Source of the DNA: a virus
Virus genome (UHGV): UHGV-1566927
Reading direction: 5' to 3' (one strand)
DNA length: 19,632 bases
The position numbers were made by a program. Below, piece after piece: positions 15,001 through 19,632 of this stretch (position 1 is the stretch's first letter; each line of letters begins with the position of its first letter).

Positions 15001-18000
15001 CATCCGTTCCGTCAGCCCAGCCAATAGCGAAGGTCAGGTTTGTCTGGTCACTGGATTCAGCAAGGTTGCTCAACATGACATGGCTGGCGTTTGCCGGGTC
15101 TGCGTTAAGAGCTACAGTAGCCTGACCGGGAGTGCGCAGACCTTTTTTATAGGAACGAGTATTGGTTTCACTCAGACAGGTATCTTCAATCTGATCTGCC
15201 GGACTACTACCTGGTGAGAACGAAGTAATACATTCAACTTCACTGACCACACCGTTATTCAGAACGTACATCTGAGTGCCTTGAGTCACTACTGACATAA
15301 TTATCTCCGGGTATAAAAAAACCGGCTCAAGGCCGGTTGTGGAAGGTTTGTTATCGGTTGACTATCCAGTCAACGTCGAAAGAGTATCTATACCTGAGTG
15401 TCTCAGGGTCTCGCGTCTGATTACCCCAGCGAACAATGTTGGCTTTTACCTCAATCGCATTACGCATGGCTTGAGCGACAGCAATCGCTTCATCAGGGGT
15501 ATCGGCATAGATATCAACCTGAAGCGAATACATGTCCGCATCAGGTCGTTGGTTGAGAAAATTTTCAGGAGAACCGCTGACGTTCTGCCAGACGGCGTAT
15601 GGATAAACAACGCTATCGTCCTGAATACCGAAAGGGTAAATTCTTACCGGATTGCTTCCGAGTAAAGCAGTGACTTCAGAACTCGATGCGCAAACAGAGA
15701 AAATAGGAGCAATCATGCCGTCTCTCCTTTCTTCTGTGCTCGTTTGATGGCTCGGTCAATCCCCGCTTCGTAGTTAACAGAGAATGTGTTGAAAACCTCT
15801 ATCAACCTTGAATTTGCAGCAGCACGAACCAGCGGTTTTGCTGCCATCTTTTCAGTGCCAAACTCAAGAAGACGCCAGTGTGGAGTGGGTGCATCTTTCG
15901 CAGTGCTTGGATGCTTTTTTAGTACGGCACCCTGAAGAATACCTATCCTGAAGGCCAGATCGCCTGTTTGTTTAAACATACGACCATTCCAGCGAAGCGC
16001 GGCGTTATCAGCAATGCTACGGGCGGTTTTAGGGTCGTCGAGTCGCTCTGCGTTTCTCTTTATCTGAGTTACGATCACGTTTCCCGCTTTCCTCAGTGCC
16101 GAGCGCCCTGTTTTGCGCTTAGTTTCCGTGGTAATGGCTTCTAACTTACCAAGCAGTGAATCTACACCTTCAAGCTTAAACTCAATGCTATCAGCCATCC
16201 TTTACCCCCTCTGAGCACGGAAGCGTGAGATATTCGAGCCCACTATCAGGGTCAGGAAGAATCCCCTCAATGCTGTAGATTTTTCCACGGAAAAGAATAC
16301 GGTCTTTCTCCTGGATATCTTCCCGGTATCGAATCGTGATTCTGGCTGTTACTTTTACGTTTGATGCCTGGGCTGTAATGAAATCCCTGACAGAAGAGGC
16401 AACCACGCTACCCCACACCTCTGCAAGCTCATTCCAGGTGTATTCCATTGCACCAGTAGTAGGTGACTGGACAGCCGTTCTCCTCTGGATGGTGATGCGG
16501 TGGCGCAGTTTTGCAAATTCCACAATTACCTCGGCTTTCCATCAAGATAGGTTTGCGGTGGCAAATCATCATCAATTTCATCAACGAGCGTTTTTGCAAT
16601 CAGAGATACAAGCGTTTCATCAGCCTGAGCCAGGCGATTTATCGCTTCTGCCTGTTTGAGTTGAGACGCCGCCAGTGCCTTCAGCGCTACCGTTAATTCG
16701 TTTACCTGCTGCTCGTTCATAGGCAATCCTCGTCCACTTTTTTATCCACTCGCGCCGTTTGGCGCATCCTGCGCATGCCATATTTGCCCCTTAAATAATT
16801 GTCGGCTTACGGAGGTCGTAAATCAGCATTGAAACAGAAAATGGAAGTTCGCCCTGTTTCAGCTTCTCTTCCTCTTCGCCGCCACGATTACGGTCAAGAT
16901 AGCCAAGCAGAACCAACAGGGCTGTCTGAACGCGAGTGAGCGGCTCACCATCGATAAGATTTCCAGTGTCATCAACGATCAGCGACCTGCTACCCTGGAT
17001 GTAAGAAAGGATTGCTGCACTTCCACCCTGAATTTTTAATGTCAGGTCTGAATCACCGTAATCATCATCGATACGGAGATGCATTTTCGCCTCTTCGAGC
17101 GTCACCAGTTCAATCATGGCTTATCCCTCAGGTCGCGACCTTTCTTCACAGCAAGTGTCCACCCCTTAGAGCCTGTTTCACCTGGTTTGTCAGTAGTAGG
17201 TTCGTTGCAGTGCCACATAGACCCGCCCCAGGTGACTGTGTCACCAGGCTGATACTCGGTACCGGTTTTAAACACATCACGATAAATAGTTACCGGGACG
17301 TCAAAGGACTTAACCTCAACTGCTCCACTTGCCCTTTCGAGTGAGATTGAGAAGGTTCGCTGGTTATCCTGTTTGATATCGACGTTCGACACGCCATCAA
17401 CGATGCATTCCCAGCCTCGCATACCGTGCGTCTTTTCATGAGATCGCCAAAGACCGCCGTTATGTGTTGCGTAAGTTCCGCGAGGGTAACTTTTCTTCTC
17501 GTCAATGAATGGTTCAAGCTCGATTGATAAAGCGTCCTTACCATCGCTGCCGGACTCAGGAACTGGAATATTCGCGGCCACATCTTCAGCCAGTTTTTCA
17601 ACATCTACCGGCTCTGGAAGTGATGCTAATACAACCTCTTCAACCAGGGGACGAAGGTCTTCTGCACTGACGCTTTTACCATCCTTAGGCTTGGGAAGTG
17701 ATTCTATAGCCTGCTTCACCGCACTTTCTGCCGCGTCGGCGATGCTCTGGCTAAAGTCGGGTAGTTCTGGTGCTTTCGGTAATTCAATGGCACTCACCGC
17801 TTCTGAAACCATTTTGGACACATCAGGAATTTCTACTGGCTGGAATTCAGGAATTGACAGACGAATCTCATCCATTTGTTTCTGTAGTCCAGCCTCAATT
17901 TCAACAAGCGCTTTTTTAAAGTCATCAGCCAATTTATTAATGGCTGAACCAAACTCTTCACCCAGCGCCTTTATCAGGGATAAATCACGTTCGTTCATTT

Positions 18001-19632
18001 TGTTATTAATCCTCTGAGCATTGATTTCGCCGCGAAAAGTTCTGTCTCGGTTAATGCCTTTCCACTTTCTTCTACTGGATCTGGTGACTGTTCCGACTGC
18101 TGCTGTCCTTTCCCGAACGGGTCTTCAGATGCATCTCGTCGAGCTAATGCTGCAAGGCTATAATTCTGCTGCTGCAGGAATAGCGAATCACCGCCCTCAA
18201 CCGGAGGAAGGTTTTCGCTTTTTCGCGCTTCGTTTGGTGTAAGAATGGTGTTTTTAACTCCATCACCCAGCGCTTTCATTCTGCGTTCGCTGTCCATGCG
18301 TAGAAGCGCACCAATATCAAGCTCTACTCGCTTTTTAGAATCCAGTTCGAAAGCTTCTTTCAGAAGCGACTCGATAGACTCAATCAGTACCTGCAAGCAC
18401 TGTGAATAATATTGTTGTTCAAGAGCTTCAACGTTATCAGAGCTTGGGATTTCGCCCACGCCAGCCTTATATGCCGGGACGTGAAAAGCAGAACAAACCA
18501 TTTCTGCAGAGAGTTTCTGCTGTTCAACGGTCTGCGCATCGACTGCAGACATTGTGATCGCTTTGTATTCTGCACCACCTGACAACAGTCCAGTCTTTCC
18601 TGCATTTTCACCTGTATAACCGGCATCCCAGGCTTCTTTTATTTCTTTAGCTTTTGCCGCATCAACTGAGCCTGGAATAGTAATGACACCGCTTGGTTTA
18701 CCTCCATTCTTAAAGAAGAAAGCAGAGCTTTCCTGAATGTGTTTTCCCTGCATTGCTGCGAGCCCACAGGCATAGATGGGGGAAATACCAATCAGAGGGT
18801 GAAAGAGGCAGTTGAAGCGATCGTGAATGATTTCTCGCGCTGGTACGGTTACCTGTGTCGGTAACCCACTAATCTGGTCAGGACTAATTTGGTAAAAGAC
18901 AGAACCATCATCAGCTACCAGAGGCGTGACTTTATCAGGATCTAGAATGCGAAGTTCTGTGATTTTCCCGGCGTTATTTTTTACCTTCATCACATAGGTG
19001 TTACCGCGAGAAAGCTTTGAGTTCATCCACGTTTCAAAAAACTGAATTGTGTTCTGAAACTGGTTTGGCTTGCTGATTATTGTCTCGAAATTGGCATCTG
19101 AGATTTCTTTCCAGATACCGTTAGAGTCTTTGGCCTGAATGGCTGGAGACATCTTTGAAATGTCACTGGCAATCAGGGTAATACAGGAAAACACTGCGTA
19201 GTAAGAAAGTACGGTTTCATTCCTGATTTCCATGTTTCTTTGCCATGCACCTGCGAAAGGTTCTCTGACAAAGGAAAATATCGGAGTCCAGCCGCGAGAT
19301 GATGGTTGCTGTAGTGCTTTCTCTTTCCGTCTAAAAGGATTCCACATCAGCCATTCTCCGCGTTTTCTTTTTTACTTTTACGCCCACCTGCTTTTTTGCC
19401 GGTTACGTATTCCGCCTTTTTCAGCAGAACCAGCACCTTTGCGCACTGGTCATTCACAATTTTCTCATCACCTGGCAATGAGTCATGTGTACGCTGAAGG
19501 TATCTGATTTTTGCCATTTGAAATGGCGGGGTTTCCCCATAAGCGCTAACTTAAGGGTTGAACCATCTGAAGAATGCGACGCCTCGGTGCCTCGTTAAGA
19601 CGATGCCTCGCGTTCTTCAATTGCGTTTTGTA

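What the first reader, a model, noticed from the sequence alone, without database searches (positions are those of the whole stretch)
17114..19347. No prohead protease or major capsid gene between portal and connector genes; atypical 294-aa protein in their place
In HK97/lambda-type structural operons the portal gene is followed by protease, scaffold and major capsid genes before the gp6-like connector. Here the portal stop overlaps the start of a single 294-aa ORF whose stop overlaps the gp6-like start. That protein has a coiled-coil N-terminus, a long acidic proline-rich low-complexity linker and a C-terminal region with two Trp/Gly/Cys repeats resembling small carbohydrate-binding modules; about 120 folded residues is too short for an HK97-fold capsid protein. 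Either the capsid and protease genes lie elsewhere (non-canonical order), the element depends on capsid proteins encoded elsewhere, or this is an unusual scaffold/decoration-like protein. The tight translational coupling argues against a recent simple deletion.
Basis: partly seen in the sequence, partly recalled or inferred. Interest (0 to 1): 0.6.

Follow-up and report, generated by a model that had tools for sequence, protein, structure and literature searches.

The report
Phage head module, capsid gene upstream
The capsid and protease genes are not missing: in this prophage family they are fused into one gene placed before the portal gene, just past the window edge and here behind an inserted IS element. 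The 294-aa gene in their usual place is a widespread, uncharacterised protein linked to the portal, so the gene order is ordinary.

Summary
On the minus strand the portal (17995-19347), a 294-aa ORF (17114-17998) and a gp6-like adaptor (16791-17117) follow each other with ATGA stop/start overlaps. No protease or capsid gene lies between them.

This is the normal order of a large known family, which includes Stx phages 2851 and 1717, Salmonella phage FSL SP-016, Pseudomonas phage PAJU2 and many prophages. The order is HNH, TerS, TerL, one ~645-aa prohead-protease::HK97-capsid fusion gene, a small ORF, portal, the 294-aa protein ("X"), then adaptor. Contigs 95-100% identical to the window carry the fusion gene 33 nt upstream of the small ORF. 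The window instead ends in an IS186/IS421 copy inserted at that spot.

X is not a capsid protein. It has an N-terminal helix, acidic helix/proline repeats whose number varies from about 0 to 25 among homologues, and a conserved all-beta C-terminal domain. That domain models at pLDDT 94 and consists of CBM5/12-like modules. The family spans more than 5,000 protein clusters and is always encoded between portal and adaptor. In some lineages it is fused in frame to the portal C-terminus.

I infer a low-copy accessory protein tethered to the portal. Whether it sits inside or outside the head is unresolved. The gene order is ordinary; the function of X is open.

The parts
19538..19632 (-). Right end (terminal inverted repeat ...CCCTTAAGTTAGCGCTTATG) of an IS186/IS421-type IS4-family element. 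It is inserted in the spacer between the capsid-fusion gene and the small ORF, and the window ends inside it.
   Evidence: These 95 nt are identical to the end of an annotated IS421 copy in E. coli PCN061. Thousands of E. coli genomes carry copies of them. Homology to IS-free relatives starts exactly at 19537.
19347..19517 (-). Conserved small basic ORF (56 aa, phrog_829, function unknown) that lies between the capsid-fusion gene and the portal in relatives. Its TGA overlaps the portal ATG (TGATG).
   Evidence: An ORF of 56-131 aa occupies the same position in L001, L005, L006, L009, L012 and L014-L023.
17995..19347 (-). HK97-family portal protein, 450 aa. Residues 381-450 form a low-complexity tail ending in a short helix.
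   Evidence: PF04860 E 7.7e-76, TIGR01537 5.8e-86, phrog_2271 1.9e-190.
17855..17998 (-). Protein X, residues 1-48: N-terminal amphipathic helix, the putative oligomerisation and portal-tethering element.
   Evidence: AlphaFold helix at residues 3-48, pLDDT 53-79. This end is joined to the portal C-terminus in natural fusions. It is the least conserved part of X.
17543..17854 (-). Protein X, residues 49-152: acidic spacer of short helices separated by Pro-rich turns (P-x-P-x-DGKS-V-x-x-x-D-hxP motifs), ending in two G-X-Y triplets.
   Evidence: Composition; four short helices. Homologues carry about 0 to 25 such repeats, or collagen repeats. No DNA-level tandem repeat is present in the window.
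17117..17542 (-). Protein X, residues 153-294: conserved all-beta C-terminal domain built from CBM5/12-like modules.
16791..17117 (-). gp6-like head-tail adaptor (Ad1), 108 aa; its start overlaps the stop of X.
   Evidence: PF05135 3.5e-6; phrog_40 2.2e-22.
16526..16726 (-). Conserved small ORF (64-66 aa) between adaptor and head-closure gene, function unknown.
   Evidence: A 64-aa gene is called at the same position in L001 and L014-L022. No NCBIfam hit.
16191..16523 (-). Head closure / head completion protein (Hc1).
   Evidence: PF05521 5.6e-28; phrog_25 2.9e-34.
14373..16198 (-). HK97 gp10-like neck protein (15713-16198), gp17-like tail terminator (15351-15716), lambda-like tail tube protein (14801-15298) and tail assembly chaperone (14373-14750). 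The element therefore encodes its own siphovirus tail.
   Evidence: PF04883, PF11367, PF16460 (1.8e-66) and PF16459. Downstream lie the tape measure protein, DUF1833, TipJ and the tail spike.

Best explanation
The window holds the distal two-thirds of the late operon of an HK97-like siphoviral prophage. Its head module has the order HNH, TerS, TerL, [prohead protease S78 :: internal scaffold-like segment :: HK97-fold capsid protein, one gene of ~645 aa], small ORF, portal, X, adaptor Ad1, small ORF, Hc1, neck and tail genes. The capsid and protease functions are therefore encoded upstream of the portal, outside the window. In this genome an IS186/IS421 copy has inserted into the GC-rich hairpin of the 33-nt spacer between the capsid-gene stop and the small ORF, and the window ends inside that IS.

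The 294-aa protein X is not a capsid protein. It belongs to a very large, uncharacterised family (phrog_1289) that is always encoded between portal and adaptor. It consists of an N-terminal helix, a variable acidic helix/Pro-turn (or collagen-like) spacer, and a conserved all-beta domain of about 140 aa made of CBM5/12-like modules.

Inferred mechanism: X is made at roughly portal level because it sits in a chain of four stop/start-overlapping genes (small ORF, portal, X, Ad1). It is tethered by its N-terminus to the C-terminal, capsid-interior tail of the portal. It would then act at the portal vertex inside the procapsid as a portal-linked scaffold-like or minor head protein. Its C-terminal domain would be a binding knob for another head component, or possibly for a glycan.

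Steps shown: the gene order in relatives, the IS, the domain architecture, the fold, and the natural portal::X fusions. Steps inferred: copy number, tethering, location and partner.
For: Gene order. An E. coli prophage 88-90% identical to the window has TerS, TerL, a 645-aa 'major capsid protein', portal, a 294-aa protein and the connector. The 645-aa protein matches Peptidase_S78 (residues 49-153), Phage_capsid (385-634), TIGR01554 and TIGR01543. Contigs carrying the identical small ORF show the same order in 7 of 10 displayed places (L014-L019, L023). In L020 the upstream gene is cut by the contig end but matches Phage_capsid, L021 ends in the IS, and L022 keeps only a capsid remnant. The order also holds in phages 2851, 1717, FSL SP-016 and PAJU2 and in distant metagenomic members.

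IS. Window 19538-19632 equals the end of IS421. Homology to IS-free relatives starts at the next base. A JGI contig that is 100% identical over 10.3 kb breaks in the same IS end.

X is not a capsid protein. The high-confidence model of residues 140-294 (pLDDT 93.8) matches only CBM5/12 and fibre modules. There is no sequence hit to capsid, scaffold or MuF families.

Portal linkage. The portal-X overlap is present in all relatives, although its length varies between 4, 8 and 11 nt. Identity of the X C-terminal domain tracks portal identity across six genomes: 92/95, 72/70, 58/61, 52/56, 52/41 and 35/42 %. In-frame portal::X fusions are real. The 859-aa protein of the inducible Stx2c phage 2851 occurs with identical sequence on 806 contigs, in a cluster of 6387 members, and a second lineage (1237 aa) occurs on several contigs. 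The 2851 fusion arises from one extra G in a G5 run. None of the 150 best cluster representatives has a domain after the X C-terminal domain, so fusion occurs only on the portal side.

Portal C-termini lie in the crown, inside the capsid. This is established knowledge from HK97-family, SPP1, P22 and T4 portal structures and was not tested here. The acidic, helical spacer (pI 4.1) resembles scaffolding proteins more than resident DNA-contacting proteins.
Against: The window itself does not show the capsid gene, so its presence beyond the IS in this genome is inferred from relatives. One relative (L022) has lost most of the capsid gene.

For the function of X there is no virion proteomics, no structure and no genetics. 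Several features are typical of external fibres: a coiled-coil start, collagen repeats in some homologues, 1-4 G-X-Y triplets before the C-terminal domain, spacer length varying from about 0 to 25 repeats, and structural neighbours in tail fibres. A protein buried in the head would be unusual on these counts.

Portal fusions are rare (2 of 150 representatives). They could be tolerated loss-of-function events, because portals are known to accept C-terminal extensions. The abundance of the 2851-type fusion largely reflects clonal O157 genomes. The full-length AlphaFold model is poor (pLDDT 55).
Confidence: 0.7

Rival explanations
1. X is an external neck or collar fibre ('whisker'). A trimer would be anchored by its N-terminal helix at the portal/adaptor junction, with a spacer of variable length and a distal CBM5/12-like knob. 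The knob would bind surface polysaccharide and aid reversible adsorption, or sense the environment.
For: The gene lies between portal and adaptor. X has fibre-like features: a predicted long N-terminal helix, collagen repeats in P0200 (Pfam Collagen 2e-9), G-X-Y triplets before the C-terminal domain, and copy-number variation of the repeats, including 240-, 294-, 348- and 402-aa versions among Stx phages. The C-terminal domain resembles chitin-binding modules and modules of the tail fibres of phages Pa193, 7-7-1 and Milano.
Against: Natural in-frame fusions attach X to the portal C-terminus, which lies inside the capsid in all solved portals. The C-terminal domain evolves at the same rate as the portal across hosts from E. 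coli to Pseudomonas, unlike host-specific receptor binders. In module 2 the surface-aromatic pair of the chitin-binding domain 2rts aligns to acidic consensus positions in the X family profile; a hand mapping places these at Glu/Pro in the window protein. No collar or whisker protein family is hit.
Confidence: 0.3
2. In this particular genome the element lacks a working capsid gene and is defective or dependent on capsid proteins from another prophage. The IS186 insertion, or a linked rearrangement, has removed or uncoupled the capsid-fusion gene.
For: The window ends in an IS inserted exactly where the capsid gene should abut. The insertion disrupts a hairpin lying between a strong Shine-Dalgarno sequence and the start of the small ORF. 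A relative (L022) has an integrase about 1.2 kb upstream of the small ORF, with no gene called in between although the capsid-gene 3' end is still there.
Against: A simple IS186 insertion does not delete flanking DNA, so the capsid gene is expected about 1.3 kb further on. Seven of the 10 displayed places that carry the identical small ORF keep the full 645-aa gene. Late operons of lambdoid phages are read by antiterminated polymerase, so polarity need not be complete (general knowledge, not tested here).
Confidence: 0.1
3. X is a high-copy capsid decoration protein that cements or decorates hexamers. It would be analogous to SPP1 gp12, T4 Hoc or phi29 head fibres.
Against: The stop/start overlap with the portal gene and only a modest Shine-Dalgarno sequence suggest portal-level synthesis rather than hundreds of copies. 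Fusion to the portal makes no sense for a shell-wide decoration. No decoration family is hit.
Confidence: 0.07
4. X is joined to the portal by programmed -1 ribosomal slippage at ACA-AAA-TGA, giving a fraction of extended portal subunits.
For: In the window, L001 and FSL SP-016 the junction reads ACAAAATGA. A tRNA-Lys could re-pair one base back and then read ATG.
Against: The A-run is not conserved in more distant members. PAJU2 reads TTCAATGA, L009 CATGCTTGA and L012 AATGAAATTTAA, and the overlaps are 4, 8 and 11 nt. ATGA overlaps are commonplace coupling signals.
Confidence: 0.03

Closest known systems
Head modules of Stx-converting phages 2851 and 1717 (genus Pankowvirus), Salmonella phage FSL SP-016 and Pseudomonas phage PAJU2
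   Same: They share the gene order TerS, TerL, ~645-aa protease::capsid fusion, small ORF, portal, X homologue, Ad1, Hc1. Relative to the window, portal identity is 42-70% and X C-terminal domain identity is 35-72%.
   Different: The window's X has the short 294-aa spacer and is a separate gene, whereas in 2851 it is fused to the portal. The distal tail genes differ: DUF1833/TipJ/tail spike here, lambda H/M/L-like in 2851. The window carries an IS186/IS421 copy upstream of the small ORF.
Canonical HK97 / lambda head operon (portal, protease, [scaffold], capsid, gp6-like adaptor)
   Same: The protein families are the same: HK97-type portal (TIGR01537), S78 protease, HK97-fold capsid protein, and gp6-, gp7-, gp10- and gp17-like connectors.
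   Different: Protease and capsid protein are fused into one gene and placed before the portal rather than after it. An extra gene (X) with no HK97 counterpart sits between portal and adaptor.
SPP1 gp7 / Mu gpF 'minor head protein' (PF04233), the gene that follows the portal gene in SPP1- and Mu-like phages
   Same: The position directly after the portal gene is shared, as are the occasional fusion to the portal C-terminus and the expected low copy number. The gp7/gpF properties are recalled from the literature and were not tested here.
   Different: There is no sequence match to PF04233 or to any MuF model. X is acidic, repeat-rich and ends in CBM5/12-like beta modules. This is a functional analogy only.
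Phage fibres with coiled-coil or collagen stalks and small beta-module knobs (T4 fibritin whiskers, phi29 head fibre, tail fibres of Pa193, 7-7-1 and Milano)
   Different: There is no sequence homology. X is encoded in the head module, is coupled to the portal, and co-evolves with it rather than with the host.
CBM5/12 chitin-binding modules (PF02839) of chitinases and chitin deacetylases
   Different: In the profile alignment to 2rts, the aromatic pair that contacts chitin (Tyr-Trp) aligns to acidic consensus positions in the X family profile. The role of those residues is from the literature. Carbohydrate binding is therefore unproven.

Membership tests
HK97-fold major capsid protein (PF05065 / TIGR01554) | Sequence match to capsid profiles, or an HK97 fold (A and P domains, E-loop) of about 280 or more residues | tested here: not met
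   X has no Pfam or NCBIfam capsid hit. The confident model of residues 140-294 matches only CBM5/12 and fibre modules. The rest of X is helix plus spacer.
Head module with protease::capsid fusion preceding the portal (2851 / PAJU2 type) | Small ORF, portal, X, Ad1 and Hc1 in this order with stop/start overlaps | tested here: met
   for the window. The same order is seen in L001, L004-L007, L009, L012 and L014-L023.
Head module with protease::capsid fusion preceding the portal (2851 / PAJU2 type) | A ~645-aa Peptidase_S78 + Phage_capsid gene between TerL and the small ORF | not testable with these tools
   The window ends at 19632 inside an IS. The feature is met in relatives that are 95% identical over the shared stretch (L014) and in the 88-90% identical E. 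coli prophage. The 100% identical JGI contig also stops in the IS. The exact junction was not found in the genome collection.
phrog_1289 / portal-adjacent X family | Full-length profile match and a conserved C-terminal domain | tested here: met
   phrog_1289 E 1.7e-97 over residues 1-293. phrog_2271 (fused portal+X profile) E 1.9e-75 over the X part. There are 1530 homologues.
CBM_5_12 (PF02839) | Profile score above the gathering threshold | tested here: met
   30.0 bits against a cutoff of 26.2, E 5.5e-7, residues 243-273.
CBM_5_12 (PF02839) | Small three-stranded beta fold like chitinase binding domains | tested here: met
CBM_5_12 (PF02839) | Exposed aromatic residues that stack on the sugar chain; actual carbohydrate binding | tested here: inconclusive
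   In the profile alignment to 2rts, the Tyr-Trp pair of the chitin-binding domain aligns to acidic consensus positions in the X family profile. Other conserved Trp residues exist. Binding cannot be tested in silico.
SPP1 gp7 / Mu gpF minor head protein (PF04233) | Sequence match to the MuF domain | tested here: not met
   No such hit at E<=0.01 in Pfam, NCBIfam or PHROGs.
SPP1 gp7 / Mu gpF minor head protein (PF04233) | Bound to the portal inside the head, a few copies per virion | not testable with these tools
   Only indirect evidence is available: gene adjacency, coupling and natural portal::X fusions.
IS186 / IS421 (IS4 family) | Terminal sequence identical to annotated copies; insertion at a GGGG(N)CCCC-type GC-rich target | tested here: met
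   95 of 95 nt are identical to the end of the IS421 copy in E. coli PCN061. The insertion lies in GGCGGGGGAAACCCCGCC. The target preference is from the literature.

The most novel reading that the evidence does not exclude
X defines an unrecognised class of portal-tethered proteins, present in more than 5,000 protein clusters. These proteins would link the portal to capsids built from protease::scaffold::capsid fusion proteins. X would be a trimerising, variable-length tether whose CBM-like knob grips the shell or its internal domain and so ensures portal incorporation. Alternatively, it would be a new kind of portal-anchored fibre. Either way it would be a core but unstudied part of a very common head-assembly system that includes Stx1 and Stx2c phages.
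Probability: 0.2. Interest if true: 0.6.

Novelty: new member of a known kind. Interest (0 to 1): 0.3.

Why it matters
The apparent anomaly disappears, so nothing new about capsid-less or satellite-like elements follows from this window.

What remains useful has three parts. First, this head-module type, with a fused protease::capsid gene ahead of the portal, should be recognised by annotators so that 'missing capsid' calls are avoided. Second, the gene between portal and adaptor is mislabelled in databases as 'portal protein' or 'gp6-like head-tail connector protein'. It is a distinct, very widespread family of unknown function with a confidently modelled CBM5/12-like domain. Third, the family occurs in medically relevant Stx1a and Stx2c phages, where natural fused and unfused alleles differ by a single G. 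That gives a ready genetic handle for testing its role.

Tried and rejected
1. X as a compact capsid or scaffold protein: rejected by profile searches and by fold.

2. Longer X homologues (344-492 aa) as X::Ad1 fusions, which might have explained NCBI's 'gp6-like connector' label: rejected. The extra length is additional spacer repeats, and no representative has sequence after the C-terminal domain.

3. Portal::X fusion as a sequencing error: rejected. The exact 859-aa protein is found on 806 contigs. The cause is G6 versus G5.

4. Programmed -1 frameshift at ACAAAATGA: not supported, because the junctions are not conserved.

5. X spacer length as a ruler for head or genome size: no trend. Among Stx phages of 49-57 kb, X is 240, 294, 348 or 402 aa without any relation to record length.

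6. Full-length AlphaFold model: uninformative (pLDDT 55). Only the C-terminal domain, with a deep alignment, was usable.

7. Exact-match search for the IS/phage junction in species-representative genomes: nothing found.

8. Literature searches found no proteomic, structural or genetic study of X. Phage 16-3 turned out to have the canonical order.

9. DNA tandem repeats in the X gene: none. Rfam families in the window: none at gathering score.

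
Full report
OBSERVATION. All relevant genes are on the minus strand. The portal gene is at 17995-19347 (450 aa; PF04860 E 7.7e-76; TIGR01537 5.8e-86). Its TGA overlaps the ATG of a 294-aa ORF at 17114-17998. 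The stop of that ORF overlaps the ATG of a gp6-like adaptor at 16791-17117 (PF05135; phrog_40 Ad1). Downstream follow a small ORF, head closure protein Hc1, a gp10-like protein, a gp17-like tail terminator, the tail tube protein, the chaperone, the tape measure protein, DUF1833, TipJ and a tail spike.

WHERE THE CAPSID GENE IS. Four complete E. coli genomes carry a prophage 88-90% identical to window 14000-19537. In one of them (L001) the order is HNH, TerS, TerL, a 645-aa 'major capsid protein', portal, a 294-aa hypothetical protein, then the connector. The 645-aa protein has Peptidase_S78 at residues 49-153 and Phage_capsid at 385-634. It also matches TIGR01554, TIGR01543 and, weakly, the NCBIfam model for 'prohead protease/major capsid protein fusion protein'.

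Ten places carrying the window's identical 56-aa ORF were displayed. In seven of them (L014-L019, L023) a full gene carrying both domains, 645 aa in six and 506 aa in L019, lies just upstream of that ORF. In L020 the upstream gene is cut by the contig end but matches Phage_capsid. L021 ends in the IS, and L022 retains only a capsid-gene remnant. The same order holds in Stx2c phages 2851 and 1717, Salmonella phage FSL SP-016 and Pseudomonas phage PAJU2, where the record itself notes a 'prohead protease fused capsid protein'. It also holds in distant metagenomic members. The arrangement is therefore a conserved, already annotated family order and not a loss.

THE WINDOW EDGE. The last 95 nt of the window (19538-19632) do not match the relatives. 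They are identical to the end of an annotated IS421 (IS186-type, IS4 family) copy and are repeated in thousands of E. coli genomes. In IS-free relatives the capsid gene ends TAA, followed by GAAGGAGG, a hairpin GGCGGGG-GAAA-CCCCGCC, and then the ATG of the small ORF. The IS sits in the 5' arm of that hairpin. A JGI metagenome contig that is 100% identical to 10.3 kb of the window stops in the same IS end. The capsid gene is therefore expected about 1.3 kb beyond the window, but this cannot be shown from the window.

WHAT THE 294-aa PROTEIN (X) IS. X matches phrog_1289 at E 1.7e-97 and the C-terminal part of phrog_2271, an 859-position portal+X profile. It has 1530 homologues. Its last 145 residues match 5097 50%-identity clusters, 326 of them at E<=1e-30, and the match is always at the C-terminus of proteins of 193-1237 aa. 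Databases call the family 'portal protein' or 'gp6-like head-tail connector protein', but no curated NCBIfam model matches it.

Length differences between homologues come from the middle region. That region has from none to about 25 copies of a helix plus Pro-rich-turn unit (P-x-P-x-DGKS-V-T-x-x-D-V-x-P...), or true collagen repeats in some members. One to four G-X-Y triplets precede the C-terminal domain. In the window protein, residues 3-48 are a predicted helix. Residues 49-152 are the acidic spacer (pI 4.1, 13 Pro) with four short helices.

HOW X IS LINKED TO THE PORTAL. Four observations bear on this.
- The gene always lies between portal and adaptor and overlaps the portal stop by 4, 8 or 11 nt in different lineages.
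- Identity of the X C-terminal domain tracks portal identity across six genomes: 92/95, 72/70, 58/61, 52/56, 52/41 and 35/42 %. This is unlike a host-range determinant. The N-terminal 55 residues are much less conserved.
- In relatives whose portal core, X C-terminal domain and Ad1 are 97-100% identical to the window, the portal tail (residues 381-450) and X residues 1-55 are only 83-84% and 67% identical. This is one contiguous divergent patch. It is compatible with co-inheritance of interacting parts, but it is a single event.
- Natural in-frame portal::X fusions exist. The 859-aa protein of phage 2851 is found with identical sequence on 806 contigs, in a cluster of 6387 members, and a 1237-aa fusion from another lineage occurs on several contigs. 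The 2851 fusion differs from the unfused 1717 allele by one extra G in a G5 run 17 nt before the portal stop. No representative has anything fused after the X C-terminal domain.

MECHANISM. Shown: the head module is of the 'fused protease::capsid first, portal second' type, and X is a conserved portal-adjacent protein with a helix, spacer and CBM-like knob design.

Inferred: X is made at about portal level and is tethered by its N-terminus to the portal C-terminal tail. In all solved portals that tail lies on the crown side, inside the capsid (literature knowledge, not tested here). I therefore favour, at about 0.4, a role inside the procapsid as a portal-linked scaffold-like or minor head protein. 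This would be analogous in position and fusion behaviour, but not in sequence, to SPP1 gp7 and Mu gpF. Its strong acidity fits a transient scaffold-like role better than permanent residence next to DNA.

The main rival, at about 0.3, is an external neck fibre. It is favoured by the collagen and coiled-coil features, the freely varying spacer and the tail-fibre-like modules. On that reading the rare fusions would be tolerated loss-of-function events. A high-copy decoration role (0.07) fits the coupling poorly. A programmed frameshift (0.03) is not supported by the junction comparison. A head-size ruler role is not supported either, because spacer length does not follow genome length among Stx phages.

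COMPARISON AND NOVELTY. The element is a new member (about 90% identical to known E. coli prophages) of a known kind of head module. X itself belongs to a sequence family already catalogued in PHROGs, but I found no functional study of it.

VERDICT. The missing-capsid puzzle is explained by a known gene order plus the window edge and an IS insertion. Residual interest lies in the unknown role of a very common portal-linked protein.

Noticed in passing
window 19518-19632: An IS186/IS421 end is inserted in the 5' arm of a hairpin (GGCGGGG-GAAA-CCCCGCC). In IS-free relatives this hairpin lies between a strong Shine-Dalgarno sequence (GAAGGAGG) and the ATG of the 56-aa ORF, about 27 nt apart. The hairpin may normally bring the two together, so the insertion could lower translation of the coupled chain of small ORF, portal, X and Ad1.
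   Followed up: partly
window 39-99, minus strand: A 3' half of a tRNA (T-arm, acceptor stem, CCA) without the 5' half. ARAGORN finds no gene, while Rfam gives weak tRNA-clan hits. Some part of window 1-235 matches nearly every E. coli genome, at 99% or more in about 4,400; the listed rows do not show which bases. From memory it is the 3' part of tRNA-Ser(CGA) serU, that is the prophage attachment-site copy. This also points to an E. coli or Shigella host.
   Followed up: partly
window 907-5214, plus strand: An O-antigen modification cassette next to the att site: GtrA (907-1269), GtrB-type GT2 (1266-2186), GtrII-type glucosyltransferase (2186-3613), and an additional 522-aa polytopic membrane protein with no Pfam hit (3646-5214). 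GC content is about 34% against about 48% for the phage genes. This is a likely serotype-converting module with a second, unassigned membrane enzyme.
   Followed up: partly
window 17834-18207: A contiguous divergent patch covers the portal C-terminal tail (residues 381-450, 83-84% identity) and X residues 1-55 (67%). The relatives concerned have flanking portal core, X C-terminal domain and Ad1 that are 97-100% identical. It is either a small recombination tract or fast co-evolution of two interacting ends.
   Followed up: partly
window 19347-19517 and 16526-16726: Two small conserved ORFs of unknown function belong to the module. One is a basic 56-aa protein (phrog_829) between the capsid-fusion gene and the portal. 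The other is a 64-66-aa protein between Ad1 and Hc1. Both are called in all close relatives.
   Followed up: no
L004 and L007 (phages 2851 and 1717), portal 3' end: The fused (859 aa) and unfused portal/X alleles of O157 Stx phages differ by G6 versus G5 in a homopolymer 17 nt before the portal stop. Both states are common in public records. The tract could switch by slippage.
   Followed up: partly
L022 (GCA_025797805.1 contig), 4221-6611: A close relative in which an integrase and a DUF4224 gene lie about 1.2 kb upstream of the small ORF. No gene is called in between, although the 160 nt before the small ORF still match the 3' end of the capsid gene. This is a deletion or rearrangement variant lacking TerS, TerL and most of the capsid gene.
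   Followed up: partly
window 14107-14750, minus strand: The tail assembly chaperone (14373-14750) and a 51-aa 'tail assembly protein T'-like ORF (14107-14262; PF06223 in relatives) are separated by about 110 nt rather than overlapping. The usual G/GT frameshift arrangement is not obvious from the ORF list.
   Followed up: no
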